Part shown: one piece after another, positions 8,771-39,703 of the stretch
How positions within the stretch are numbered: position 1 is the stretch's first letter
Layout: each line of letters starts with the position of its first letter
Virus record (IMG/VR): IMGVR_UViG_3300030450_003652
Location: 1 to 39,703 of that record
Reading direction: 5' to 3' (one strand)
Source: a virus
Taxonomy: Duplodnaviria; Caudoviricetes
DNA length: 39,703 bases
The notes under the pieces: model-generated
What the model saw: the letters and a program-made list of their open reading frames with translations, nothing else
Told to the model about the DNA's origin: nothing
The model's database searches: none
Position numbers and translations under genes: made by a program

Positions 8771-9184
8771 ATGAGTAGAAAAAAATTTAAAGATACTGGC
8801 GTTGGGAAATTTTTGTTAAACAAAATTCCTGATGTTGTAGGAAAAATTGCTGGTGACACTCCAGTAGGGAGTGTTATTCAAGCAATAATAGGGGGTAGCG
8901 ATATGTCTGAAGGAGATAAAGCTATTGCTCTTAAAAAATTAGAAGTAGAACGTGCTGAAATTGATGGCACCACAAGACGTTGGGTGGCAGATGCTAGATC
9001 AGGAAATTGGCTTGCGGCTAATGTGCGTCCTCTAATATTAATTTTTTTAACTGTAAGCTACGTTGTGGGGTGGTATTTAAAATACCCTCTTGACCAAATT
9101 ACGGGTCTTCTTACTATCGTAATTGGAGGCTATTTTGGTTCACGTGGCGTGGAAAAAGTATTTGGAAATAATAAACATAAATAA
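8771..9184 (+). CDS. Putative holin
   Basis: Two hydrophobic segments after W-x-x-x-NVRPL, ending GYFGSRGVEK with a basic tail; immediately upstream of the endolysin. Confidence 0.65.
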   Translation: MSRKKFKDTGVGKFLLNKIPDVVGKIAGDTPVGSVIQAIIGGSDMSEGDKAIALKKLEVERAEIDGTTRRWVADARSGNWLAANVRPLILIFLTVSYVVGWYLKYPLDQITGLLTIVIGGYFGSRGVEKVFGNNKHK

Positions 9185-9186
9185 TA

Positions 9187-9594
9187 ATGAGAGCAATAAA
9201 CGAAGCAATTTTACATTATAGTGCTACTCCTGAAGGGAGAGACTTTGATGTCGAAGACATTAGAGAATGGCACGTAGATGGTAACGGTTGGAGTGATATA
9301 GGTTATCATTATGTAATAAAATTAGATGGGACTATTCAAGAAGGTAGGCCTATTAGTAAAACAGGCGCTCACTGTAAAGGGCGTAATAAAGGAACAGTAG
9401 GTATATGTTATATTGGCGGAGGATTAAAAGATGGCACTGATACACGAACAGACGCTCAAAAAGCATCTATTTTACAATTACTTATAGAATTAACTAATGT
9501 ATATGGTATAAAAAAAATATCTGGACACAACCAATATTCAAAGAAAAATTGTCCGGGATTTGATGTTCCAAGTGAATATTCTAGTTTAGTATAA
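9187..9594 (+). CDS. Endolysin, N-acetylmuramoyl-L-alanine amidase (Amidase_2, T7 lysozyme-like)
   Basis: ILHYSAT, GWSDIGYHYVI, GRP...GAHCKG-x-N, GICYIGG, GH, K-x-CPGFDV zinc-amidase motifs. Confidence 0.92.
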   Translation: MRAINEAILHYSATPEGRDFDVEDIREWHVDGNGWSDIGYHYVIKLDGTIQEGRPISKTGAHCKGRNKGTVGICYIGGGLKDGTDTRTDAQKASILQLLIELTNVYGIKKISGHNQYSKKNCPGFDVPSEYSSLV

Positions 9595-10415: not shown

Positions 10416-10626
10416 TAAAGCTCTAATAGAACTTGAAAAAGTTATTAGACAAACAATAGATTTAGTTGAATTAGACCCAGAAAAAGCTAAAACAGCAGCT
10501 CAAGCAAAATGGGTGGCTATTGAAGATTCTTTAAAAATTATAGAAAAAATTGAAGAATTATCAGATAAAAAAGAAAACAAAAAAGAAAATAAAACTTTTT
10601 TGGGAGTAGAAAATAGAATAAAATAA
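10381..10626 (+). CDS. Putative terminase small subunit
   Basis: 81 aa helical, charged protein; stop overlaps the terL start (TAATG); assignment is positional. Confidence 0.45.
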   Translation: MDRREKVISAADKALIELEKVIRQTIDLVELDPEKAKTAAQAKWVAIEDSLKIIEKIEELSDKKENKKENKTFLGVENRIK

Positions 10627-12863
10627 TGTATAAACAAACGTTATATAAGGTTCTAACCGATCATTTATCTAATAAAACAGTAAAGAATTGGAATAGACAT
10701 AAAAAATTTACTCAGGGCTATAATGAAGACTTAGATTGTGTTATAATTAGTAAAGATGGTACATTAGGAGAAATATATGAGATTCAAGGTCTTAAGGTAG
10801 GATTACCTCAAACTCCAAAAATTATTGATGGTAAAGATTTAAAAAAATCTGATCAATATTTTAAAAAATTGGAAAAACCACAATCTCTTAAAAGAATAAA
10901 AACAATATATGATTTTCAAAGTTATCCAGAAAAAATTAAAGATCAATATTATGAATATATTGATAGGGAGTTTAATTATAGGAATGACGGGTATTGGTTC
11001 ATGTGCAACGGCGAACCATGTTACATTACAGGATCGCACTATATCTATCTCAACTGGACCAAAATCGACGTGGGATCACCGGACTTTAGACAAGCAAATA
11101 GAATTTTTTTCTACTTTTGGGAAGCGTGCAAATTGGATAGAAGATGTTACGGAATGTGCTATCTTAAGAATAGACGGTCTGGCTTTAGCTTCATGGCATC
11201 AGCTGAATGTGTCAACCAGGCTACAACTTCAAAGGATTCTAGGTTTGGGATCTTATCTAAGACTGGAGCAGATGCTAAGAAGATGTTCACAGATAAGGTT
11301 GTACCGATCTCAACTAATTATCCCTTTTTCTTTAAGCCAATACAAGATGGTATGGAAAGACCCAAAACGGAATTATCCTATAAAGTTCCCTCGAGAAGAC
11401 TCACGAGAAACACCATTAAATTTACCTCCGCGGGAGAAGCCGAGGAGATACAAGAAGGATTGGATACAACCATCGATTGGAAAAATACCGGGGACAACTC
11501 GTACGATGGGGAGAAGTTACAACTCCTCGTTCATGACGAATCGGGTAAATGGGAACGTCCCGACAATATCCTCAACAACTGGAGGGTCACAAAAACGTGC
11601 CTCAGGCTCGGATCCAAAATAGTTGGTAAATGCATGATGGGATCCACTTCTAATGCTTTAGAAAAAGGAGGGGATAATTTTAAAAAACTTTATTATAATT
11701 CAGATGTCACAAATAGAAATCGCAATGGCCAGACTACAAGTGGATTATATGCTTTGTTCATACCTATGGAGTGGGGATTCGAAGGGTTTATCGATAAGTA
11801 TGGGTTCCCTGTATTCAATACACCACCAAAACCGGTTGAGGGAATTGATGGTGAATACATCTCTACGGGAGTCATTGACCACTGGGAAAACGAAGTTGAA
11901 GGTTTAAAAAAAGACTCAGATGCTTTAAATGAATATTATAGGCAATTTCCAAGATCGGAAAAACATGCATTTAGAGATGAGACTTTTAATTCTTTGTTCA
12001 ATTTAACTAAAATTTATGAACAAATTGATTTTAATGAAGAAATGACTAAAAAAGGTCATATAGTTAAAGGAAATTTTGGCTGGAGGAATGGTATAAAAGA
12101 TAGTAAAGTAATTTGGCAACCAAATATTAAAGGAAGATTTTTACTTTCTTGGATACCACCAGATAATTTACAAAACAATATAATAAATAAAAATGGTATA
12201 AGCTATCCGGGTAATGATGGATTAGGAGCATTTGGATGTGACCCTTATGATATTTCAGGAACAGTAGGTGGAGGTGGTTCTAAAGGGGCTTTACATGGAT
12301 TAACAACATTTTCAATGGACCCTAGTGTGCCCAGTACTAAATTCTTTTTAGAATATATAGCAAGACCGCAAACTGCAGAAATATTTTTTGAAGATGTATT
12401 AATGGCATGTGTATTTTACGGAATGCCATTATTAGCAGAAAACAATAAACCTAGATTGTTGTATCATTTTAAAAGAAGAGGTTATAGGGGATTTTCAATG
12501 AATCGCCCTGACAAATTAAGATCTAAATTGTCAAAAACCGAATTAGAATTAGGGGGTATACCAAATACCTCAGAAGATATAAAACAAGCTCATGCGGCAG
12601 CAATAGAATCTTACATAGAAGAATATGTAGGTAAAATAAGAGAAAATCATGGTAATATGTTTTTCCAAAGAACATTAGAAGATTGGGCTAGATTTGATAT
12701 AAATCGAAGAACAGCTCACGATGCATCTATTAGTAGCGGTTTAGCACTAATGGCTTGCAGAAAACATATGTATAGACCAAATATAGAAAGAACAGTAAAA
12801 AAACTTGATTTTATGTTTTCACACTATAATAATGAAGGATCAAGAAGTCAGTTAATAAAATAA
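10626..12863 (+). CDS. terL: Terminase large subunit
   Basis: Walker A-like LKNRRSGFS, Walker B LLVHDESGK, motif III MMGSTSN, RNase H-like GCDPYD and HDASISSG; precedes the portal. Confidence 0.92.
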   Translation: MYKQTLYKVLTDHLSNKTVKNWNRHKKFTQGYNEDLDCVIISKDGTLGEIYEIQGLKVGLPQTPKIIDGKDLKKSDQYFKKLEKPQSLKRIKTIYDFQSYPEKIKDQYYEYIDREFNYRNDGYWFMCNGEPCYITGSHYIYLNWTKIDVGSPDFRQANRIFFYFWEACKLDRRCYGMCYLKNRRSGFSFMASAECVNQATTSKDSRFGILSKTGADAKKMFTDKVVPISTNYPFFFKPIQDGMERPKTELSYKVPSRRLTRNTIKFTSAGEAEEIQEGLDTTIDWKNTGDNSYDGEKLQLLVHDESGKWERPDNILNNWRVTKTCLRLGSKIVGKCMMGSTSNALEKGGDNFKKLYYNSDVTNRNRNGQTTSGLYALFIPMEWGFEGFIDKYGFPVFNTPPKPVEGIDGEYISTGVIDHWENEVEGLKKDSDALNEYYRQFPRSEKHAFRDETFNSLFNLTKIYEQIDFNEEMTKKGHIVKGNFGWRNGIKDSKVIWQPNIKGRFLLSWIPPDNLQNNIINKNGISYPGNDGLGAFGCDPYDISGTVGGGGSKGALHGLTTFSMDPSVPSTKFFLEYIARPQTAEIFFEDVLMACVFYGMPLLAENNKPRLLYHFKRRGYRGFSMNRPDKLRSKLSKTELELGGIPNTSEDIKQAHAAAIESYIEEYVGKIRENHGNMFFQRTLEDWARFDINRRTAHDASISSGLALMACRKHMYRPNIERTVKKLDFMFSHYNNEGSRSQLIK
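10909..11622 (+). CDS. Candidate overprinted gene (+1 frame of terL), lipoprotein-like
   Basis: 237 stop-free codons in the +1 frame; basic N-region, hydrophobic stretch and IGS-C lipobox (Cys codon 11002-11004); terL synonymous codons turn C/G-ending across this span. Confidence 0.6.
   Translation: MIFKVIQKKLKINIMNILIGSLIIGMTGIGSCATANHVTLQDRTISISTGPKSTWDHRTLDKQIEFFSTFGKRANWIEDVTECAILRIDGLALASWHQLNVSTRLQLQRILGLGSYLRLEQMLRRCSQIRLYRSQLIIPFSLSQYKMVWKDPKRNYPIKFPREDSRETPLNLPPREKPRRYKKDWIQPSIGKIPGTTRTMGRSYNSSFMTNRVNGNVPTISSTTGGSQKRASGSDPK
11704..11907 (+). CDS. Second candidate overprinted ORF (+1 frame of terL)
   Basis: 67 aa; frame open from about 11663; GC-elevated synonymous sites at about 11760-11900. 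Confidence 0.35.
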   Translation: MSQIEIAMARLQVDYMLCSYLWSGDSKGLSISMGSLYSIHHQNRLRELMVNTSLRESLTTGKTKLKV

Positions 12864-18257: not shown

Positions 18258-19046
18258 ATGACAACAAAAACAAAACAAACTAAAAGTTCTAATATTTCAC
18301 CTAAAGAAAAAAATTGGGAAATTAAAGATAGAACTTATATATTAACAAACGGTAGAGCGCCTATTACTTGGTCAATTCAAACAAGAAATACTCCAAGAAA
18401 ACCTTTATTATGGTTTAATGAAGAAACAGGTGAAACCAGAGAATTAAGATTAACATCAAATCATCCAAGTCTTTTTATAGACGAACAAAAAGGCCCTGCT
18501 TTATTGGAGCATGTTATGTTTGAAGACGGTGTTCTATTTGTTCCAAGAAATAAACAAAATTTACAAAAGTTAATGTCTATATATCATCCTTTAAGTAATG
18601 GAAATTTATGGGAAGAAGTAGATACAGCTAAAGAGGCTAAAGACGAAATTGATTGGATTGAATATGAATTAAAAGCACTTAATTTAGTACAAGAGTTAGA
18701 TATTAGTCATATAGAAGCTATTATGCGTACAGAATTAGGTAGCAGTGTTGGCCAATTATCATCTAAAGAATTAAAAAGAGATGCTTATAATTTTGCTAAA
18801 GGCAATCCTAAATTGTTTATAGAATTAAGTGAAGATGATGATCTTAAATTAAGAAACTTAGCTAATAGAGCGGTTGAAGCAAATATTATTAAACTTACAG
18901 ACGATAATACTGTATTTAAATTTGCTAATGGTAAAAAAATTATGACGGTACCATTTGATCAACATCCGTATGGCGCATTAGCGCAATATTTTAAGACTGA
19001 TGAAGGCTTAGATTTAATGAAATCTATTGCTAAAAAATTAGCTTAA
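18258..19046 (+). CDS. Conserved hypothetical protein of the head/neck module
   Basis: 262 aa, normal codon usage; lies between capsid and ring genes; no recognisable catalytic motif. Confidence 0.6.
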   Translation: MTTKTKQTKSSNISPKEKNWEIKDRTYILTNGRAPITWSIQTRNTPRKPLLWFNEETGETRELRLTSNHPSLFIDEQKGPALLEHVMFEDGVLFVPRNKQNLQKLMSIYHPLSNGNLWEEVDTAKEAKDEIDWIEYELKALNLVQELDISHIEAIMRTELGSSVGQLSSKELKRDAYNFAKGNPKLFIELSEDDDLKLRNLANRAVEANIIKLTDDNTVFKFANGKKIMTVPFDQHPYGALAQYFKTDEGLDLMKSIAKKLA

Positions 19047-28662: not shown

Positions 28663-31600
28663 ATGTTTGAATGGAATGGGCAACAGTTCACTTTAGATCA
28701 AGTATTAAAATCTGCAGAAGAAGCAGGCCTTAGCTTTGAGGAATATAAGGAAAAATATGGTATAATTGAGGTTGAAGATAAAGAACCAGTTTCTGATTTT
28801 CAATATAATGGTAAATCTTTTACTTTTGATCAAGTAGACAATGCCGCAAAGGAGGCCAACTTGAGTTTTAATGACTATGTACAAACATATGGCATCGAAA
28901 CACCTAAAGAGGTTGAAGTTGTTGGAGAAAGATATCCTAAAGCAAAAGAAGAATCCAAAGTTCCATATGCTCCTCAAGAGGAAATTGTTGGGCCTAGCAC
29001 TCAATCACGAGAGTGGTTGGAACAACAACAAACAGATCTTTTAGATTACGAAGAAAATCTTATTCCTGAAGCAGAAGAATTATTTTCGCCTGATTGGGTT
29101 GAAGATAATCAAGTATATGTGCCTAGCACAGGACCAGTTGCTATTGGGGGAATAGCTGCTAATACAACCGGGGGCGGGGTCTATATAGATCCAGTGAACA
29201 AGGGAAGAACTGAAGCAATTGAAGAGGCTAAAAAATTATTAAATGAACAAAATGGCGGAACAAATTTAGTAGAACCATCTGAAGAAGAAATTTTAGAAAC
29301 TGCTAAAAATATTTGGCTTAATAAAAAACAAGAAAATCTAGAGGTTGATTTTGCAGATCATTATTTACGTAAAAATGCAGCACTTGATTGGGGTGATTTA
29401 AAAACATATGCTTCTATAGCTTCTCCATACATAATGCCCACTTTAAATCCTGAAATGAAAGCATTTAAAGAAAGGCAAGCTACTCTTGCTAAAGGAGATA
29501 AAAAATTTGCGCAAGAAAAAGTACAAAAAAATAAATTAGATCTTAATAAACTAAGCACTAAAGTAAAAACTAATGAATTACAAGCTATTAATTTAGCTCA
29601 AGGTGATTATAAAACCCAAGAAGACTTCGACGAAGCCAAAAAACAACTTGCAAATATAGCTTTAGAAAACGAAGCTATTATTAAAAAAAGTGAATATATT
29701 TTTGATGATTTAAAAGCTAATTCTAAAGAAATAGGTAAATATGATGAATATCTTGATGTAATAAAAAGAGATTATAGTTTTTCAGGTATAGCTTTAGGGT
29801 CGCTTACTGCATCTACTATAGAATTAGTTAATGGAGGGTTAGCTATTCCGAGATATTTAAAAACTGCTGCGGATAATTTAGCAAGAGGAATTACTGACAA
29901 TAAATATGATATGCCAGATTGGGTGTTTGCTTTAGCTGGCCCCGCTTTTAATCTTTTAGCTAGTGAGGAAACTAAAGATGTTAATGATTTCTTGGATAAT
30001 GTTTCTGAAAATATTAGGGGTACTTTTGCAAAAAATCAAGAGGTAACAGACATAGATAGCCTAGGTGGTGTTGCAAGTTGGATAGCGCAATTAATTGGTA
30101 ATCAAGCTCCAATAATGGCAACTATGATGTCTATGCCTACATATTCTTTAACAGCGTTAGGGGCTTCAGCTGCAGGTGGTAAATTTCTAGAAATGGAAAA
30201 AGAAATGGGTTTACCGGGCGGGCCAACTTATAGTGGTCTTGAATTGTTATTAGCTCCAGCTATAGTAGGGGGAGCTGAATATCTTTCAGAAAAAATAACC
30301 TTAGGGCAGGTGAAAGGCGTAATGAAGGCTGTTAAAGGCGATCAATCTATTATTGAGGCAGTAAAAAGATATCTTACAAATGATTACCTTAGGTGGACTA
30401 AAGACATGTTCCAAGAAGGTGGTTCAGAAGTTGCGGCAACTTTAGCTGAAAACATGACTGATAAGTATCTATTAGACAAAGATGTTGAATTAACTAGAGG
30501 GCTAGCTGATTCCTTTGCAAGTGGTGCTGTAATGAGTGGATTTATATATAAAGCCCCATTGGCTGGGAGAGCTTTAAGTAAAGTATTTTGGGGTGAAGAT
30601 GTAAGAAATCAAATTCAAACTGGTAATCAATTAATTAAAGAGTTAAATAATGAACTTAATAATGATAATTTAACGGAAACTGAAAGAAAAGACATCTTAA
30701 ATAATATTGCTGAAATCGATGCTAAGCAAAAGAAGATAATGCGAAATGCTAATGAAAGCTTTGATAATGCTACTACTACAGAGAAAAAAAGGCTTTTTAA
30801 AATATATGATTTACAAAATAACATTAAGAGAAGGGCTATAAAAATAGCTAATAACACTAAGCTTAGTGAAAAAAATAGAAAAAAAATGATTGATATCCAG
30901 CAAAGAAAATGGGATGGCTATCAAGATGAAAAAAATTCTATATTAATAAGATTAAGCGAAAAGAATTTTGATCCTCAAACTTTTTCAATAGAAGAGTATG
31001 AAAATAATGTTACTAAAGGGAAAATGGGTCGTAATGAATATATAGACAAACAAATCCAAACATTATCTAATACTTTATTAAATTTACAAGAGCGTAGAAA
31101 AAAAGCTACTACTGCTGAAGAAATAAAATTATTAGATTTAAAAATAAAAAATGTTCAAAATAAAATAAAATATTTAGTACCTGAAAAATCAGGATTTTTT
31201 AGCATTATCCCAACAACTATAAGGAAAGCTAACTCTATAAAAGAATTAAATGAAGCTTTTATTACTAAGTCTGCTGAATTAAGTGATGCATTAAAATCTA
31301 AAAAAATAACACCAACTGAGTATAATAAACAATACAAAAGACTTAAAAATAGTTTTGATAAAAAAAGAAATAGTTTTATAGAAAAAGTTGATAAAACTAA
31401 AGGCGAATATACTGAATTACAAAAATTATATGATTCAACTATAGACAAAGAAGGGAAATTACCTACAACGCAAAGAGGCCAAAATAAATTTGTTAATGAA
31501 TTTAATAAAATTGCAGCACCAATTTTTGAAAAAATAGCTCAAAGATTATATGATAGAACATCTAAAGATAAAGTTGGAGGTTTAACAAGAAAAAATTTTA

Positions 31601-34600
31601 TTAAAGGTTTACAATCTGAAGCTTGGAAAATTTTAGAAGAGGAGTTTGATCCTAGTTTACAAACTTTAGATAAATTTATTAGCAATAGATTAAATTTAAG
31701 AGCTAATAGATTATTTGGCGAGGATACAGGCAGAAATGATGAATTTACAGAAGAGTTAACTGATAAAATTTCTCAAACAATTGTTGAAGAAATTGAGGAA
31801 GAAAATGAAGGAAATAAAATAATAGAAACTAGTAAGCTTTTAAATTTACCTAAAAATATAACTAAAAAACTTAAAGCTAGTATTCCTACTATCTTATCTA
31901 CTTTAAAAAGTAAAATTGATTCTAGAAAATTTAAAGGAGAAATAAGCAAGGCTTTTAAAGATTTGTTATATGGAGATCTAAAAGAATTTTTTGGTAAAGA
32001 TAAAAAAGGAAATAAGAGATTTACAGATTTTATAACTAAAAATACTAAAGCTTTATATGATACACTAACAGAAGAAAGCATGAGAATGGCCCGTAATAAT
32101 AAGACCGGGGTAAATCCTTTTGTTGAAGCTGGATTTTTAATTGAAAAAGATGGTGAATTAGTAAAAGCTGCTTTTGAAAATATTGATCAACAAGCATTCA
32201 TAGATTATTATACTGCTAAAGATAAAGCAGCAAATACTATGTCTGATCGTAGAATGAATTTAATAGAAGCTGTAGCCTCCTCTATTGGGTCTGCAGAAGC
32301 AATAAATGCATTAGCTACAGATGCTGATATTAAAAATAAATTTTTAGAACAACAAACCAAAGAACTTGAAAAAGCTGCTAAAGGTTTAAGTTTATTAGAA
32401 TCATATGCTCGTAATATATTCCAAAAAATTACTAAAAAAATTGAAAAAGAATTTGCTAGATATGGGTTTACCCGTTGGAGTACTTTAGCGTTAACGTATG
32501 GATTTAACGATATTAATTTAAATAATGCTAAGGAGAGAGAAGCTTTTTTAGAAAATTTAGTTAAAACAGGATTAACTAAATTATTACCAGCTAGTTTATT
32601 TAGAAGTTTTCAAGGTGTTAGTAAACCTAAAATATTTATAGAATCTGACGGATTAAAATACGTAAAAAACCTTGATGGGGAATTGTTATTAAAAAAGACA
32701 TATGAAACCCTTTCAAAAAAACAAAAAAAAGAGCAAGGTTTTGGTAATATAGAAAGAGACCATGACAGGCATGTATTTTTTAAAAACGCCGCCGAAGCTG
32801 ATGCTTGGATTAAAGAGGTGGGAATAGAAAATTTTGCCAAAGATCCTATTATTGATAAAGCATTAAAGAAAAGCGCTTATACTAGTAAAATAAAGGGGAA
32901 AACTGTTCTTACAAAAGTAAATTGGAAAGAAGAAGATAATAAATTAGTGGCATTAGAAAAAATATTTGATATTTTTCAAGAGTACATGCTTGACAATGGT
33001 AAAGTAAATAAAAAGAACGCTTCTATAGTATCTGCTTTGTTAAAATCTTCTCCATCGTGGCAAGGGCATTTTGTTAGAAAACTAGCTCCAAGAGGATTTA
33101 CTAATTCAAGTAAATTATTAGATGATTTAGGAAATAGACTATTTGTAGAAGAACATACTTTACCCGCTTCTGCTGTAGCTAAATATCTATTTGAGCAAGC
33201 TATTAATGGAACAGTAAAAAATAATTTTGATTTAATCAAAAAAAATTATTTTCAAGGGCCTTTATTAAAGACATCTGATGATAAATTATCTGGAATTGGT
33301 GTTGATGGAAAACCTTTTACATATAAAGAGTCTACACCATCTGGTTGGATGTTAACAGATAATATTTGGGCTAGATATTTTAATGCTAATGTAAATAATA
33401 CGCGTGGTGGTATAGATCCCAATGTTATTATTTTAAGAAACGGTAAAACTGTTGCCCAAGAATTTAATGTTCAATCTGATGGAACTATAACGCCCGATGT
33501 TAAACAATTGCAACAAGAAGGTATCGCTGAACAAACAGGGGACCAAGTAGAAAATTTACTTGATAGGGCTATAGCTAAATTAACTGAGCTTACAGGTTCA
33601 CAAGGCACATTACAAATGAATTTAGCTGCTGTTCCTATCCATTTATTAACAGGTGGATTAAGAGCCGTTAAATTGGCATATCAAGGAGGGAAAAGCTTAA
33701 GTCAAGCTATTAGTGCAGGATATAATAAAGTAAAAAATTATATGACTGAAACAGAATGGGCTGAATTTGTTGGTGTTTCTGTTCAAGAAGTAAGAAATGA
33801 AAAAAATCCTGCTCAAGTTAAATTGGCCATTCTTTCAGAAAAAGGTGTTGCTCAAATTCAGGAACAATCAAGAAAAACTGATAATGCTTTATTAAAAGAG
33901 TTTGGAATTGATATTGACGGATTAAGTACTGATGAAATTGTTGAAAAATTAAATATACTTAGGAAAGCTAAAAGCGAAGCTTCAAATCCAAAAAATCCAA
34001 CTAAGAAGGCTAGAGTATTTGATTTTGACGACACGCTGGCTAAAACTAATTCTAAGGTACTTTACACGCTCCCAGATGGAACGGAAGGTAATTTAAATGC
34101 TACAGAGTTCGCGGAACAATACGAGTCCTTAAAAGAATCCGGTGCAACTTTTGATTATTCTGAGTTTAATAAAGTAAAAGACGGCACTAAAGGTCCATTA
34201 GCTACATTAGCTAAAAGATTTACGGAGGCATTAGGTGATAGAGATGTATTTGTATTAACAGCACGCCCAGCGGAAGCAGCGGCAGCTATACAAGAATTTT
34301 TACGAAATACTTTAAATATTAGTATTCCACTAAAAAATATATCTGGAATAGAAAATGGAACTCCCGGCGCTAAAGCTATGTGGATTGCTGAAAAAGTTTC
34401 AGAAGGTTATAATGACGTTTTCTTTGCCGATGATTCCAAACCTAATGTTGAAGCTGTTGAAAAAATGTTAACCGATTTAGGTGTAACAAATAGAGTTCAA
34501 CAAGCTAAAGAAGATGGCCAGAAAACTTTAGAAGACGAAATGGATTCTTTGATTAGAACTAATAAACCTTCTAAGTTTGGTAGAATATTAAATAAATTAA

Positions 34601-36816
34601 ATATTTATATTCCGCCTGGAGCTGATGATTTTGCTGGTTTATTATCTTATTTTTTAGGCAGCGGTAAAACAGGCGAACAACAACAAAAATGGTTCCAAGA
34701 AAATTTATTAGATCCATTTGCTAAGGGGATTGACGCATGGACTGCAGCAAAAGTTTCATTAGCTGAAGATTATAAAGCATTAAAGAAAAGATTTAAAAAT
34801 AAAAAATTATTAGCCGAAAAGGTTTTAGGAGGATTATATACTAAAGAGCAAGCTGTTAGAGCTTATCTATATAATAAAGCTGGACAAGATTTAGGTTTAA
34901 ATAAAGCTGATACCGAAGATCTAATAGCTTTAGTTGAGGGCGATGCTAAACTTAAAGCTTTTGCTGAAGAATTATCTAAAATAACTAAATTAGATAATGG
35001 ATATCCTAATATTACTAAAGAATGGTTGGGCGGTAATATTGATACAGATATGGCTAATGCTGCCAACACATCTTTAAGAGATATATTTTTACAAGATTTT
35101 ATAAATAATAAAAATCAGATTTTTTCTCCACAAAATTTAAAATTAATAAAACAAGCATATGGTAATGATTTTACTAATGCATTGGAAAATATTTTAGAAA
35201 GAATGACTACGGGTATAAACCGTAAAAAGGGAAAAGATAAAGAATTTAATGCGGTAATGACCTGGATTAATCAATCCGTTGGTGCAGTGATGGCTATTAA
35301 TATGAGATCGGCAATTCTTCAGCAGTTATCTATTGTAAACTATACTAATTGGAGTTTTAATAATCCATTTATGATGGCAAAAGCAATGGCTAATGTTCCT
35401 CAATTTTTAAAAGATTATGTTAAAATATGGAACTCCCCATTTTTAAAAGAAAGAAGAGGGGGAATGGCTATTGAAGTCAATATGGCAGATATAGCAGATT
35501 CAAATCCAAGTAATTTATTCTTAAAATTAAATAAAAAACTACTTGAGTTAGGATTTAAGCCTACACAATGGGGTGATAGCAATGCTATATCCTTTGGAGG
35601 AGCTACTTGGTATAGAAACAGATTAAATCAATTACTTAAAGAAGGTACGATGACTGAGAAAGAAGCAGATGCTCAAGTTATGTTAGAGCTTCGTGAACTT
35701 TCTGAAGAGCACCAGCAATCTTCTAGACCAGATAGAATATCTAGACAACAATCCTCAGATATAGGTAGATTGATATTAGCTTTTGCTAACACGCCTTTAC
35801 AGCTTGCTAGATCGCATAAAAAAGCTATAGGTAATCTTATTTATAGAAGAGGCGATGCTAAAACAAATATGTCTAAAGCTATTTATTATGGAATGGCACA
35901 AAGTTTAATATTTGTAGCATTACAACAAGGATTATTTTCTTTATTAGCTGATGATGATGATGAAATGGATGAAAAAGAAAAAAGAAAGCTAGATTATGCT
36001 CTTCATGGTGTTATAGATGGTTTGCTTAGAGGGATAGGATTTGCAGGAGCAACAACTGCAGCTCTTAAAAGTTTGGCTATGGAATATTATTCCCAATATC
36101 AAAAAAGAAAAGAAGGTAAATATGTAAGAGATGGTGCTCTAAAATTGATTCAAAGAGGTCTTTCAATTTCGCCTCCACTTAGTAAAAAGATTGGGGATAT
36201 TGTTGAAGCACAAAAGTTTGAAACATGGAGACAATATAAAAACGATCCTTTTTATAAAGGATTTGCTGTAGCTAATTATGTATCAGGGTTAACAAATATA
36301 CCCGCAGACAGGGTATTTAAAAAGATTGAAAATTTGAAAGCTGCGTCTGATGACAGAACCGAAGCATGGCAATCTATATTTTTATCATTAGGATGGTCAC
36401 CTTATAATGTAGGCGTACAATGGCCTGAAATGCCTCCTAAGAAAACTAAGAAAAAAAGTACTACATCAAAGAAAAAAGTTAAAAAGAAAAAAGTAAAAAA
36501 GAAAAAAAGCCCTATAAAAATGGAATTACCTGAAGGAGTTTTAGGTAGAGCTAATAAAGACGGCACTATTGAAATTAAAAAAGGACTATCTAAAGAAAAA
36601 GAAGCGGAAGTAGAGGCCCATGAAAATGCCCATTTGCTTCAGTTCCAAACTGGGAAATTAGATTATAATGATGAATATATTAGATGGAAAAATCAACAAG
36701 CTTTAAGAACAGCTGATCGTAAAATCTTTTGGAATGGTAAATTATATAAAGAAGGGGATAGGGCTTTACCTTGGGAAATAGAAGCCAATAAATTAAGTAA
36801 ACAACGAACTGTATAA
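28663..36816 (+). CDS. Giant multidomain (polyvalent) internal virion protein with HAD phosphatase and C-terminal zincin domains
   Basis: 2717 aa; VFDFDDTL / VLTARP / K / FFADD HAD motifs (about 34003-34500); HENAH...LPWEIEAN zincin (36520-36816); hydrophobic Gly/Ala helices; duplicated N-terminal repeat. Confidence 0.7.
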   Translation: MFEWNGQQFTLDQVLKSAEEAGLSFEEYKEKYGIIEVEDKEPVSDFQYNGKSFTFDQVDNAAKEANLSFNDYVQTYGIETPKEVEVVGERYPKAKEESKVPYAPQEEIVGPSTQSREWLEQQQTDLLDYEENLIPEAEELFSPDWVEDNQVYVPSTGPVAIGGIAANTTGGGVYIDPVNKGRTEAIEEAKKLLNEQNGGTNLVEPSEEEILETAKNIWLNKKQENLEVDFADHYLRKNAALDWGDLKTYASIASPYIMPTLNPEMKAFKERQATLAKGDKKFAQEKVQKNKLDLNKLSTKVKTNELQAINLAQGDYKTQEDFDEAKKQLANIALENEAIIKKSEYIFDDLKANSKEIGKYDEYLDVIKRDYSFSGIALGSLTASTIELVNGGLAIPRYLKTAADNLARGITDNKYDMPDWVFALAGPAFNLLASEETKDVNDFLDNVSENIRGTFAKNQEVTDIDSLGGVASWIAQLIGNQAPIMATMMSMPTYSLTALGASAAGGKFLEMEKEMGLPGGPTYSGLELLLAPAIVGGAEYLSEKITLGQVKGVMKAVKGDQSIIEAVKRYLTNDYLRWTKDMFQEGGSEVAATLAENMTDKYLLDKDVELTRGLADSFASGAVMSGFIYKAPLAGRALSKVFWGEDVRNQIQTGNQLIKELNNELNNDNLTETERKDILNNIAEIDAKQKKIMRNANESFDNATTTEKKRLFKIYDLQNNIKRRAIKIANNTKLSEKNRKKMIDIQQRKWDGYQDEKNSILIRLSEKNFDPQTFSIEEYENNVTKGKMGRNEYIDKQIQTLSNTLLNLQERRKKATTAEEIKLLDLKIKNVQNKIKYLVPEKSGFFSIIPTTIRKANSIKELNEAFITKSAELSDALKSKKITPTEYNKQYKRLKNSFDKKRNSFIEKVDKTKGEYTELQKLYDSTIDKEGKLPTTQRGQNKFVNEFNKIAAPIFEKIAQRLYDRTSKDKVGGLTRKNFIKGLQSEAWKILEEEFDPSLQTLDKFISNRLNLRANRLFGEDTGRNDEFTEELTDKISQTIVEEIEEENEGNKIIETSKLLNLPKNITKKLKASIPTILSTLKSKIDSRKFKGEISKAFKDLLYGDLKEFFGKDKKGNKRFTDFITKNTKALYDTLTEESMRMARNNKTGVNPFVEAGFLIEKDGELVKAAFENIDQQAFIDYYTAKDKAANTMSDRRMNLIEAVASSIGSAEAINALATDADIKNKFLEQQTKELEKAAKGLSLLESYARNIFQKITKKIEKEFARYGFTRWSTLALTYGFNDINLNNAKEREAFLENLVKTGLTKLLPASLFRSFQGVSKPKIFIESDGLKYVKNLDGELLLKKTYETLSKKQKKEQGFGNIERDHDRHVFFKNAAEADAWIKEVGIENFAKDPIIDKALKKSAYTSKIKGKTVLTKVNWKEEDNKLVALEKIFDIFQEYMLDNGKVNKKNASIVSALLKSSPSWQGHFVRKLAPRGFTNSSKLLDDLGNRLFVEEHTLPASAVAKYLFEQAINGTVKNNFDLIKKNYFQGPLLKTSDDKLSGIGVDGKPFTYKESTPSGWMLTDNIWARYFNANVNNTRGGIDPNVIILRNGKTVAQEFNVQSDGTITPDVKQLQQEGIAEQTGDQVENLLDRAIAKLTELTGSQGTLQMNLAAVPIHLLTGGLRAVKLAYQGGKSLSQAISAGYNKVKNYMTETEWAEFVGVSVQEVRNEKNPAQVKLAILSEKGVAQIQEQSRKTDNALLKEFGIDIDGLSTDEIVEKLNILRKAKSEASNPKNPTKKARVFDFDDTLAKTNSKVLYTLPDGTEGNLNATEFAEQYESLKESGATFDYSEFNKVKDGTKGPLATLAKRFTEALGDRDVFVLTARPAEAAAAIQEFLRNTLNISIPLKNISGIENGTPGAKAMWIAEKVSEGYNDVFFADDSKPNVEAVEKMLTDLGVTNRVQQAKEDGQKTLEDEMDSLIRTNKPSKFGRILNKLNIYIPPGADDFAGLLSYFLGSGKTGEQQQKWFQENLLDPFAKGIDAWTAAKVSLAEDYKALKKRFKNKKLLAEKVLGGLYTKEQAVRAYLYNKAGQDLGLNKADTEDLIALVEGDAKLKAFAEELSKITKLDNGYPNITKEWLGGNIDTDMANAANTSLRDIFLQDFINNKNQIFSPQNLKLIKQAYGNDFTNALENILERMTTGINRKKGKDKEFNAVMTWINQSVGAVMAINMRSAILQQLSIVNYTNWSFNNPFMMAKAMANVPQFLKDYVKIWNSPFLKERRGGMAIEVNMADIADSNPSNLFLKLNKKLLELGFKPTQWGDSNAISFGGATWYRNRLNQLLKEGTMTEKEADAQVMLELRELSEEHQQSSRPDRISRQQSSDIGRLILAFANTPLQLARSHKKAIGNLIYRRGDAKTNMSKAIYYGMAQSLIFVALQQGLFSLLADDDDEMDEKEKRKLDYALHGVIDGLLRGIGFAGATTAALKSLAMEYYSQYQKRKEGKYVRDGALKLIQRGLSISPPLSKKIGDIVEAQKFETWRQYKNDPFYKGFAVANYVSGLTNIPADRVFKKIENLKAASDDRTEAWQSIFLSLGWSPYNVGVQWPEMPPKKTKKKSTTSKKKVKKKKVKKKKSPIKMELPEGVLGRANKDGTIEIKKGLSKEKEAEVEAHENAHLLQFQTGKLDYNDEYIRWKNQQALRTADRKIFWNGKLYKEGDRALPWEIEANKLSKQRTV

Positions 36817-37450: not shown

Positions 37451-37729
37451 ATGAGTGAACTTAGTGAAGACACTAAATTTCAAGTAAGCATTAAGACTCT
37501 AGCGGCAATTGGAGCTGGCATATTTGCATTAGTAGGTATGTATTTTGCGCTCCAGGCCGATATAGAAGAGGCTAAGCTCTTGCCCGAACCTCCGGTTTCG
37601 AGAACGGAATATGACCTTAAAGATGAATTAATTCGCGAATCTATAATGAATACAGAAGAAAAGGTTCAAGAAAATTCGCAAAAACTGGATAAAATAGATG
37701 AAAAATTATATGAAATAATTAAAAAATAA
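37451..37729 (+). CDS. Single-TM membrane protein with C-terminal coiled coil
   Basis: TLAAIGAGIFALVGMYFAL followed by the heptad-like EEKVQENSQKLDKIDEKLYEI. Confidence 0.65.
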   Translation: MSELSEDTKFQVSIKTLAAIGAGIFALVGMYFALQADIEEAKLLPEPPVSRTEYDLKDELIRESIMNTEEKVQENSQKLDKIDEKLYEIIKK

Positions 37730-37733
37730 TACA

Positions 37734-38078
37734 ATGAAATATATAATAACTTTAATTTTGTTTTTAATTGCCTATACTGGCTTTAGCCAAACTAAAGATA
37801 TCCAATTATTACAAATTAATTCAAGTTGGAATTTAAAAAATGATATTCCAAGAGGAGATTTACCTAGTAAATACATGGTACATAAGATACGAATAGATCA
37901 TGCTACCATAGAACATCAAGGCCCTAACTTTAAAGAAAGTTTTGCTGGTAAACCTTTACCTATATTAATTTTATATGTAGATGGTAAAATAAAATATCAA
38001 TGGACTGCAGACTTATCTTTTAAATTAAAAGTATCTAAAGGTGAAATTTTAGATGTTATAGAAAAAGTGCTTAAATAA
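37734..38078 (+). CDS. Secreted protein, degenerate thioredoxin-like fold
   Basis: Signal peptide MKYIITLILFLIAYTGFS-Q; QINSSWN and LPILILYVDGK resemble Trx-fold motifs but there is no CxxC. Confidence 0.5.
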   Translation: MKYIITLILFLIAYTGFSQTKDIQLLQINSSWNLKNDIPRGDLPSKYMVHKIRIDHATIEHQGPNFKESFAGKPLPILILYVDGKIKYQWTADLSFKLKVSKGEILDVIEKVLK

Positions 38079-38420: not shown

Positions 38421-39703
38421 TTACCCATCGCACGATAAACAATCAGGATTCATTGCATTAGCTGCAATATCACCTCTCAATACAGATTCAGTACGCATAT
38501 AATAAAGTGTTTTTATACCATGTTTCCATGCTTCTATATGTATTTGATTTATCCATCTCGGGGTTGCTTCAGCAGGAAATGCTAAGTTAAGACTAACAGA
38601 TTGATCTATATAGTCTTGCCTTATTCCAGCTTGATTAACCAATTCTAATTGATTAATTTCTTTAAATGTTTTAAAAACATTTTTTACAGGCTCTCCATTT
38701 TCATGATTCTTTGTTAATTTCCCTTTATCAAAAAACCATCCATCAAGTTCATTTATATCTTGAACAGATCCACCATCTTTTAAAATTTTATCCCAAATTT
38801 CTGAAGTATCTATTTTAAGCCTTCTTAAAATTTTTTGTAATTCTTTATTCTTTCTTATAAAAGTTCCTTTAGCTGTTTGTTCAGTAAATACATTTGCAGC
38901 CCAAGGTTCAATCCCTGGAGATATATTTCCACTTAATTTACTATTTGATACAGTGGGCGCTATCGCTCTTAAATGTGTATTTCGCATTCCAGTACCCGCA
39001 CACCATAAAGGTTCACCATATGTATCCGCAAGAGCCCTAGAAGCACGTTCTGTTTCTATTTTAATCTTAGAAAATATTTCTCTAGTCTTAAATTGAGCTA
39101 AAAGCCCTTCAAAAGCAATTCCATTTTTTTGTAACAAAGTATGCCAACCTACAACACCTAATCCTAATGCTCTTCCTTTTTCAGCTGATCTTACAGAATT
39201 TTCAAATCCAACTCTTCCTTTGGCTTTATGTATAAATTCAGATAATACTCCATCTAAAAACCAAATAGAGTCATAAACAAGATTAGTATTTTTCCATTCA
39301 TCATATTTATCCAGATTAACTGAAGATAAACAGCAAACAAAACTATGTGTTTCATCTGTATGTAAAACTATTTCGCTACAGATGTTTGTCATATGTACTT
39401 TTAAACTGTTCGACTTATAAGCTTTTGGATTAGCCTTGTTTGTATTTCCTTTAAAGAGGATATACGGCTCGCCAGTAGCTTTACGCTTTTGGAGGAGTTT
39501 TCCCCATTTTTTTCTTGCTTCGGGATTTCCTGCTTCAAGTTTTCGCATAAACTTGTCACCAACGACAGCACACTGATGTAAGTTAAGAGATTGTCTATTG
39601 ACGTCCCCTTTAGGTTCTCTGATTTCCAACCATTCATCGAAATCAGCGTGCTCGATGTTGATATTAACGGATGCAGCCCCTCTACGTACTGATCCTTGAT
39701 TGG
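38421..39703 (-). CDS. nrdA: Ribonucleoside-diphosphate reductase class I alpha subunit (5' truncated by window edge)
   Basis: Frame open to the edge (NQGSVRRGAASVN...DEWLEIREPKG); TNICSEI, CCLSS, RALGLG, APTVSNS, DQSVSLN, KTLYY, C-terminal CLSC. Confidence 0.93.
   Translation of the reverse strand, partial: NQGSVRRGAASVNINIEHADFDEWLEIREPKGDVNRQSLNLHQCAVVGDKFMRKLEAGNPEARKKWGKLLQKRKATGEPYILFKGNTNKANPKAYKSNSLKVHMTNICSEIVLHTDETHSFVCCLSSVNLDKYDEWKNTNLVYDSIWFLDGVLSEFIHKAKGRVGFENSVRSAEKGRALGLGVVGWHTLLQKNGIAFEGLLAQFKTREIFSKIKIETERASRALADTYGEPLWCAGTGMRNTHLRAIAPTVSNSKLSGNISPGIEPWAANVFTEQTAKGTFIRKNKELQKILRRLKIDTSEIWDKILKDGGSVQDINELDGWFFDKGKLTKNHENGEPVKNVFKTFKEINQLELVNQAGIRQDYIDQSVSLNLAFPAEATPRWINQIHIEAWKHGIKTLYYMRTESVLRGDIAANAMNPDCLSCDG
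39401..39703 (-). CDS. Candidate overprinted ORF (+1 frame of nrdA), possibly 5' truncated
   Basis: 101 codons including the stop, open to the window edge; GC-elevated span; hydrophobic stretch followed by a coiled-coil-like segment. Confidence 0.4.
   Translation of the reverse strand, partial: PIKDQYVEGLHPLISTSSTLISMNGWKSENLKGTSIDNLLTYISVLSLVTSLCENLKQEIPKQEKNGENSSKSVKLLASRISSLKEIQTRLIQKLISRTV

What the first reader, a model, noticed from the sequence alone, without database searches (positions are those of the whole stretch)
10909..11622. 237-codon lipoprotein-like gene nested in the ATPase domain of terL
Seen: the +1 ORF starts MIFKVIQKKLKINIMNILIGSLIIGMTGIGS-C-ATAN, i.e. a basic N-region, hydrophobic core and IGSC lipobox. 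A second start at 10951 (caatattATG) resembles this genome's real starts. Hand counts give 28/60 GC at 11521-11580 versus 11/60 at both 10861-10920 and 12001-12060. The ORF spans both Walker motifs, so the constraint is costly. Known: lambda Rz1 is an outer-membrane lipoprotein embedded in the +1 frame of Rz, and xSC lipoboxes are common in Bacteroidota. Inference: an o-spanin-like or superinfection-exclusion lipoprotein hidden in terL, about 1.3 kb from a holin/endolysin pair that has no adjacent spanin genes.
Basis: partly seen in the sequence, partly recalled or inferred. Interest (0 to 1): 0.85.

Follow-up and report, generated by a model that had tools for sequence, protein, structure and literature searches.

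The report
Hidden lysis-type gene inside phage terminase
A second reading frame inside the DNA-packaging gene of an uncultured aquatic phage stays open in over a hundred diverged relatives and is broken in those that carry an ordinary predicted outer-membrane lysis gene, so it likely makes an exported, probably lipid-anchored protein that would help burst the host's outer membrane.

Summary
Observation confirmed. The +1 ORF 10909-11622 is not chance (P=3e-10 under synonymous recoding of TerL). A signal-bearing open frame sits here in 118 of 208 distinct TerL loci. The GS-C lipobox is in 33 of 33 loci of the window's clade and has fixed TerL Met126. The start is 10909, not 10951. The mature part is Arg-rich, predicted unstructured and varies in length (83-206 aa); two other carrier groups have poorer lipoboxes. 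None of 118 carriers has a stand-alone u-spanin-type gene in view; three lineages that lost the nested ORF have one. The window encodes a distant TMD+coiled-coil protein (37451-37729), a family absent from u-spanin genomes. Best model (~0.5): a de novo o-spanin-like lipoprotein pairing with that i-spanin-like protein. A large non-carrier clade has neither gene, and nothing is shown at the bench. The scan noted this nested gene before on other genomes; eight literature searches found no report.

The parts
10626..12863 (+). Terminase large subunit (host frame, 745 aa)
   Evidence: PHROG 6681 E 7e-172; 36-44% identical to TerL of Elemovirus, Maribacter phage Panino, Pachyviridae and Pervagoviridae phages
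10909..11622 (+). Nested ORF1 in +1 frame, 237 aa; predicted exported lipoprotein with a 206-aa Arg-rich, low-hydrophobicity mature part
   Evidence: AF2 pLDDT 41
10909..11004 (+). Signal peptide of ORF1: K-rich n-region, h-region, IGS-C lipobox (Cys32 at 11002-11004)
   Evidence: GS-C in 33 of 33 clade-A loci; TerL Met126 in 43 of 43 A/A' loci vs 0 of 75 B and 24 of 90 non-carriers; TerL third-position T 0.77 here
11155..11286 (+). Two periplasmic cysteines of ORF1 (Cys83, Cys126); the shortest carriers end just after the second
   Evidence: 117 of 118 carriers have two or more; invariant in alignment A1; largely dictated by TerL Met codons; truncations
11704..11907 (+). Nested ORF2 in the same +1 frame, 67 aa, motif D-Y-x-L-C-S-Y-L-W-x-G; no signal peptide
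   Evidence: TerL 4-fold changes per site 2.6 vs 5.4 (A) and 3.0 vs 6.2 (B); doubly synonymous first positions vary while third positions are fixed; a start codon in all 59 listed
8771..9184 (+). Holin-like protein (137 aa)
   Evidence: PHROG 3427 holin E 1.9e-12; PF11351 below cut-off
9187..9594 (+). Endolysin (amidase)
   Evidence: PF01510 E 2e-15; PHROG 822
37451..37729 (+). Candidate i-spanin: 92 aa, one N-terminal TMD then long helix, no periplasmic Cys
   Evidence: AF2 helices 14-42 and 51-91, pLDDT 77; homologues abut the endolysin in G003, G004, G009, G045; 1480 homologues, no Pfam

Best explanation
ORF1 is an open +1 frame kept by selection inside terL that likely arose de novo and is predicted to encode an exported, probably lipid-anchored, unstructured basic protein that would act as the outer-membrane half (o-spanin-like) of the lysis system. 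Shown by sequence comparison: stop avoidance, a selected signal region and lipobox, a shift away from hydrophobic residues and towards Arg, and closed frames in outgroups. Inferred steps: it is translated from 10909 on the late transcript that also carries holin and amidase; it is exported by Sec, lipidated at Cys32 and left on the periplasmic face of the outer membrane (no Bacteroidetes surface-export signal); it dimerises through its Cys residues and contacts the TMD+coiled-coil protein 37451-37729, so that the membranes fuse or rupture once the amidase removes the wall. Where a phage gains a one-protein u-spanin, both halves become redundant and are lost. Odds: real translated gene about 0.93, exported about 0.9, lipidated in this clade about 0.7, role in outer-membrane lysis about 0.5.
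For: Openness P=3e-10. 118 of 208 distinct TerL loci are carriers: 33 type A, 10 type A', 75 type B. Mature hydrophobic fraction 0.263 vs null 0.482 (sd 0.027); Arg 0.102 vs 0.029. 0 of 118 have two or more acidic residues after the Cys (export signal K-(D/E)2 or Q-A-(D/E)2 from the abstract of PMC5080379). A stand-alone lipoprotein+C-terminal-TMD gene was seen in 0 of 118 carriers (36 with an endolysin in view) and in 15 of 18 non-carriers with an endolysin in view. These genes occur in three non-carrier lineages inside the carrier radiation (L044/L181/L186/L190/G024; L179 group; L412/L457/L453/L438) and two deep ones (L018, L366). One type matches PHG11b_49 (45% over 76 aa, E 6e-5), listed as a u-spanin in Table S1b of PMC6139136. 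Eight genomes at least 90% complete: u-spanin type alone in G011, G024, G074; TMD-coil + beta-barrel in G010, G043, G044, G079; TMD-coil + nested ORF in G001. In 4 of 5 deep carriers (L424, L426-428; not L425) a TMD-coil gene lies between groES and terS, just upstream of terL; not in non-carrier sister L069. No Cys in the i-spanin with two in the o-spanin is the commonest combination, and summed periplasmic lengths run 62-300 aa (PMC6139136 sections 8 and 12); here about 266.
Against: The mature region shows no fall in TerL-synonymous change (4.9 and 5.5 changes per 4-fold site vs 5.4 control in A; 6.7 vs 6.2 in B), and its length varies 99-206 (A) and 83-183 (B), so no conserved C-terminal binding surface is evident. 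A 38-leaf non-carrier clade, with four near-complete genomes, keeps the TMD-coil gene without the nested ORF or a u-spanin. G002 and G051 have both barrel and nested ORF, and G046 has the start of a barrel gene. No TMD-coil gene was found in carriers G080 (81%), G081 (78%) and G046 (56%). The G001 TMD-coil match is weak and was seeded by my own alignment. u-spanin loci were enriched by searching with that protein, and the independent events are only three to five. Only 7 of 75 B and 0 of 10 A' signals fit the classical lipobox pattern (T/I or L before Cys), and signal-peptidase-I cleavage fits them too. The two periplasmic Cys are largely forced by TerL Met codons. The i-spanin candidate is 26 kb away in this genome. 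There are no expression or peptide data.
Confidence: 0.5

Rival explanations
1. A partner-free cationic outer-membrane disruptor: the Arg-rich unstructured chain is exported (lipidated or released by signal peptidase I) and destabilises the outer membrane by charge, like the cationic peptide gp28 of phiKT.
For: Selection acts on composition, not sequence; mature pI 10.4, K+R 34 vs D+E 16; variable length; non-classical lipoboxes in A' and B; it would explain exclusion with u-spanins equally well. phiKT gp28 seen only in a search listing (bioRxiv 10.1101/515445).
Against: Net charge over codons 145-262 is barely above the closed frames of non-carriers (7.9 and 6.8 vs 5.8 per 100 aa). It does not explain why the TMD-coil gene is missing from the three near-complete u-spanin genomes or why it lies next to terS-terL in deep carriers.
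Confidence: 0.15
2. A receptor-blocking or superinfection-exclusion lipoprotein (like T5 Llp; recalled), made late to stop progeny being inactivated by receptors on debris, or a lysis-timing regulator.
For: Lipoprotein-type signal, late-operon position, and patchy gain and loss across the tree.
Against: Specific receptor binding should constrain a folded surface, and none is seen. It gives no reason for exclusion with u-spanin-type genes. Small lipoprotein genes on the opposite strand occur in non-carriers and in carrier G009.
Confidence: 0.2
3. The frame is translated and tolerated but has no envelope job; or the recoding serves an RNA or DNA element, or terL expression.
For: No sequence-level purifying selection on the mature part; no family or structural match.
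Against: Two separately placed signal peptides (A and B) were each built by codon choice, and A changed TerL residues 95 and 126-127 to make an ATG and a Cys. Zero stops over codons 120-255 in carriers despite synonymous distances of 0.43-0.54.
Confidence: 0.1
4. Chance ORF in a GC-rich segment imported by recombination.
For: The local GC island is real.
Against: P=3e-10; the GC rise is mostly at third positions (GC12 0.39 vs 0.31-0.38), tracks the two ORFs and drops in the 28-codon gap; it is present in both carrier clades and absent in non-carriers.
Confidence: 0.02

Closest known systems
Embedded o-spanins, lambda Rz1 in Rz (Kongari et al. 2018, PMC6139136; passages, section 8, first part of section 12 and supplement hits read)
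   Same: Out-of-frame (+1) gene for a predicted outer-membrane lipoprotein with an unstructured periplasmic part and periplasmic Cys; missed by gene callers.
   Different: The three architectures described are embedded in, overlapping or separate from the i-spanin gene. Here the host gene is terL, the candidate partner is 26 kb away, the mature chain is long and variable, and there is no homology.
T4 PseT.3/PseT.2 separated two-component spanins (same paper, section 12)
   Same: Away from the holin and endolysin genes; i-spanin without Cys, o-spanin with two.
   Different: The T4 genes form a tested pair in their own frames; here the pair is inferred from co-occurrence only.
u-spanins of flavobacterial phages, e.g. 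11b PHG11b_49 (Table S1b of PMC6139136; curated predictions)
   Same: The genes that stand where ORF1 is lost have this topology, follow the endolysin, and one type is homologous.
   Different: ORF1 itself has no C-terminal TMD (best 19-residue hydropathy 0.87 in the mature part), so it is not a u-spanin.
Viral genes born by overprinting (PMC3494269, PMC8227390; search listing only)
   Same: Restricted distribution, closed frame in outgroups, predicted disorder, biased composition.
   Different: The host is a core dsDNA-phage packaging ATPase, it carries two nested ORFs, and the signal peptide was rebuilt at a new position in clade A.

Membership tests
Overprinted gene | Alternative frame open beyond chance and kept in diverged relatives | tested here: met
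   P=3e-10; 118 of 208 distinct loci
Overprinted gene | Host frame older; nested frame closed in outgroups | tested here: met
   Longest +1 stretch 39-87 codons in 5 of 5 outgroup TerL; all 45 protein hits are TerL-nested or assembly-frameshift forms as far as read (14 read)
Overprinted gene | Translation shown | not testable with these tools
   Needs ribosome profiling or proteomics
Bacterial lipoprotein (Sec/SPII) | Basic n-region, h-region, lipobox with G/A/S before Cys | tested here: met
   Window and 33 of 33 clade-A loci fit a recalled PROSITE-type pattern; only 7 of 75 B and 0 of 10 A' do. SignalP is not available
Bacterial lipoprotein (Sec/SPII) | Cys lipidated in vivo | not testable with these tools
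   Bench test needed
o-spanin | Outer-membrane lipoprotein without a TMD, facing the periplasm | tested here: met
   No mature TMD; no acidic export signal in 118 of 118; prediction only
o-spanin | An i-spanin gene (N-terminal TMD, helical periplasmic part) in the genome | tested here: met
   37451-37729; found in 7 of 10 carrier genomes
o-spanin | Gene embedded in, overlapping or next to the i-spanin gene | tested here: not met
   26 kb apart here; within about 700 nt of terL only in L424, L426-428
o-spanin | Periplasmic cysteine in the pair | tested here: inconclusive
   Present in 118 of 118 but largely forced by TerL Met177 and Met220
o-spanin | Homology to a known spanin family | tested here: not met
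   No Pfam or PHROG hit; no usable Atlas hit
o-spanin | Complements the Rz/Rz1 lysis defect with its partner | not testable with these tools
   Bench test needed
u-spanin | Lipobox plus C-terminal TMD | tested here: not met
   Polar C-terminus; mature hydropathy maximum 0.87

The most novel reading that the evidence does not exclude
A two-component spanin whose outer-membrane half was born from scratch inside the terminase ATPase gene, recruited a distant inner-membrane coiled-coil protein that elsewhere works with a beta-barrel, rebuilt its own signal peptide by recoding TerL, and is discarded whenever a u-spanin is imported; the same terL region carries a second, independent de novo gene.
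Probability: 0.4. Interest if true: 0.88.

Novelty: new variant of a known kind. Interest (0 to 1): 0.72.

Why it matters
It is a clear natural case of a new gene written over one of the most conserved phage enzymes, with gain, signal-peptide relocation and repeated loss visible across an abundant aquatic phage group (the scans estimated about 7,500 stored stretches matching this TerL). If the lysis role holds, it gives one reason why some phages of Gram-negative hosts seem to lack spanins (91 of 677 in PMC6139136): the gene can hide in an unrelated essential gene. The lambda Rz/Rz1 complementation assay makes the idea directly testable, and it shows that TerL third positions and some residues in this group are shaped by a second protein.

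Tried and rejected
Complex prediction of 37451-37729 (residues 32-92) with ORF1 (33-170): no verdict, score 0.00; not used either way. AF2 of ORF1 gave pLDDT 41, so no fold search was run. RNA runs: one metatranscriptome held a small share, with contigs over 12 of 30 bins; contigs cannot show frame or expression. I first read late-strand lipoproteins in G043, G044 and G010 as replacements; the 346/351-aa ones are homologues of a beta-barrel-like protein that carrier G002 also has, so that count was dropped. L159's 104-aa hit was excluded by eye as not u-spanin-like. ORF1-ORF2 read-through: rejected, TerL Met-Met forces a TGA and other stops lie between. ORF2 as a promoter or nucleotide element: disfavoured by free doubly synonymous positions, not excluded. 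ORF2 profile against 1.84 billion representatives: 22 hits; the 11 read were terL-derived or repeats. A weak ORF2 match to a small basic protein of MW202828 (E 0.047) is treated as chance. Frameshift entry at TTT AAA AAA: not conserved. Literature: eight searches listed no report of a gene nested in this terL; subscription papers and bioRxiv supplements were not visible. Rows dropped: loci without the RRSGFS anchor or with under 80 codons before it, 33 duplicates (241 to 208), and L059 from the codon alignments.

Full report
Context. The window is a 39.7-kb virus record, about 60% complete. It encodes tail fibres, a holin-like protein (8771-9184), an amidase (9187-9594), GroES, TerL (10626-12863), portal, capsid-region genes and a crAss muzzle homologue. 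The nearest cultured TerL proteins are from Flavobacterium Elemovirus (44%), Maribacter phage Panino (42%) and Cellulophaga Pachyviridae and Pervagoviridae (36-37%), so a Bacteroidota host is inferred.

Observation. The 237-codon +1 ORF, its N-terminus and the GC counts are as stated. Given the TerL protein and the genome's codon usage, the exact probability of no stop is 3.4e-10 (22 at-risk sites); 5000 recodings gave at most 146 codons. GC3 is 0.13 before the ORF, 0.45 in it, 0.18 in the next 28 codons, 0.39 in a second +1 ORF (11704-11907) and 0.16 after, against 0.16 genome-wide.

Relatives. TerL loci came from three viral scans and from scans with u-spanin-type proteins. Of 241 usable loci 208 are distinct. 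Of these, 33 carry a type-A signal as in the window, 10 a variant A' (GL-C), 75 a type-B signal placed 14-16 codons downstream, and 90 are closed. In the first set, carriers had no stops over TerL codons 120-255 although synonymous distance there is 0.43-0.54; non-carriers had 0.3-1.2 stops per 15 codons in all but one bin. Five outgroup TerL genes are closed (longest +1 stretch 39-87). On the FastTree tree, type B occurs deepest and A/A' form one clade next to B members, which suggests one origin and a later rebuilt signal (backbone support is moderate). The protein search found 45 hits; the 14 read were TerL-nested products or assembly-frameshift forms. There is no Pfam, PHROG or Atlas match.

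What selection acts on. In clade A the Phe125 codon is TTC in 17 of 17 (giving Ser), and TerL has Tyr/His95 and Met126-Cys127 where others have Phe95 and variable residues, creating the ATG and the Cys. Met126 is in 43 of 43 A/A' loci, 0 of 75 B and 24 of 90 non-carriers; GS-C is in 33 of 33 A. The 10909 Met is in 24 of 33; the 10951 Met in 3 of 16. Third-position T at 4-fold sites is 0.77 (A) and 0.86 (B) in each clade's own h-region and falls to about 0.25 in the mature part. The window's mature chain is 26% hydrophobic against a null of 48% (sd 2.7) and 10% Arg against 3%. Parsimony changes at 4-fold sites are not reduced in the mature part (4.9-5.5 vs 5.4), mature length varies from 83 to 206, and AF2 gives pLDDT 41. 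So the protein is kept open, exportable, polar and Arg-rich, without a conserved fold. Caveat: only 7 of 75 B and 0 of 10 A' signals fit the classical lipobox pattern (recalled), and signal peptidase I could cut them. No carrier has an acidic export signal after the Cys (definition from the abstract of PMC5080379), so a periplasmic position is predicted.

ORF2. Codons 363-410 of TerL are more constrained than ORF1 (2.6 vs 5.4 changes in A, 3.0 vs 6.2 in B, 4.6 vs 6.0 in non-carriers). Arg364 is AGA/CGA, Leu374 TTA/CTA and Leu377 TTG/CTG in clade A: positions silent in both frames vary while third positions are fixed, as expected for a +1 protein. The motif is open in 31 of 31 A, 9 of 10 A', 48 of 67 B and 25 of 89 non-carriers, and it survives in the L044/G024 lineage that lost ORF1, so it is a separate unit. 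It has no signal peptide and no stand-alone homologue. My guess, untested, is a small cytoplasmic helical effector.

Function by comparison. An earlier scan note (e1-9565632) suggested exclusion with an ordinary lipoprotein gene, and I tested it. A stand-alone lipoprotein with a C-terminal TMD, right after the endolysin, was seen in 0 of 118 carriers (36 with an endolysin in view) and in 15 of 18 non-carriers with an endolysin in view; the latter figure is inflated because I searched with that protein. It marks three loss lineages inside the carrier radiation and two deep lineages. One type matches PHG11b_49 of phage 11b, curated as a u-spanin in the supplement of PMC6139136; the other matches an unannotated Polaribacter phage gene. 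The window also encodes a 92-aa TMD+helix protein (37451-37729) whose homologues abut the endolysin in G003, G004, G009 and G045. In 51 handles, none of the 8 with the u-spanin type had it and none of the 16 with it had the u-spanin type (many are fragments). Among the 8 genomes at least 90% complete, 3 have only the u-spanin type, 4 have TMD-coil plus a beta-barrel-like protein, and 1 has TMD-coil plus the nested ORF. In 4 of 5 deep carriers a TMD-coil gene lies just upstream of terS-terL. Against this: a large non-carrier clade keeps the TMD-coil gene without either, some genomes have barrel and nested ORF together, three partial carrier genomes show no TMD-coil gene, and the events are few.

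Mechanism. I commit to an o-spanin-like role at about 0.5: late co-expression (terminase is a late gene in crAss001, passage of PMC10136315), Sec export, lipidation at Cys32, periplasmic face of the outer membrane, contact with the TMD-coil protein, membrane disruption after wall removal. All these steps are inferred. It works like an o-spanin in topology, size range and Cys pattern (PMC6139136 sections 8 and 12) but fails two membership features, linkage to the i-spanin gene and homology, so I do not file it as a member.

Novelty. Eight searches listed no paper on a gene nested in this terL; 'terminase' does not occur in the spanin survey's text or six supplements. The scan's own notes describe the same nested gene on other genomes; these are repeats, not independent evidence. 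The notes shown to me do not mention ORF2, the i-spanin-like candidate or the three-way pattern, but I saw only a few lines of each. Verdict: a real overprinted gene, a new variant of a known kind, interest 0.72.

Noticed in passing
window 11704-11907 (+): Second nested +1 ORF in terL, more constrained than the reported one (D-Y-x-L-C-S-Y-L-W-x-G), kept in lineages that lost ORF1; no homologue outside terL.
   Followed up: yes
window 37451-38078; G002 38106-40551; G010 42688-47847; G043 53381-56842: Envelope module after the giant gene: TMD+coiled-coil protein, a secreted protein that looks thioredoxin-like by eye, and in many relatives a 350-430-aa beta-barrel-like protein and an endolysin. 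Possibly an undescribed outer-membrane lysis system; the TMD-coil family has 1480 homologues and no Pfam.
   Followed up: partly
G043 55802, G044 240, G010 44671: The same N-terminal leader pattern (SC-x3-KKCC-x-Q) sits on the barrel in two genomes and on a 1058-aa repeat protein in a third.
   Followed up: no
L081:3491-4114, L082:6183-6728, L259:4061-4663: Outgroup phages (MW202828, Elemovirus, Panino) carry 180-207-aa proteins with an N-terminal TMD and a C-terminal run that looks like amphipathic beta-strands, near the lysis genes or terL; candidate reverse-topology spanins.
   Followed up: no
L059:2861-6064: TerL frame of 1069 aa with an insertion of about 320 aa after the ATPase motif region; possibly an intein.
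   Followed up: no
L065, L106, L113, L135, L136, L146; G009 18446-18637: Carriers with intact signal but short mature chains (83-122 aa); G009 has a frame break in terL near the nested start, possibly an assembly error.
   Followed up: partly
window 28663-36816: 2717-aa protein with a weak polynucleotide-kinase PHROG match at 1772-1951 (E 4.6e-5) and a C-terminal motif shared with small proteins of relatives.
   Followed up: no
window 38421-39703 (-): Ribonucleotide-reductase-like gene (by eye) at the contig end, on the opposite strand.
   Followed up: no
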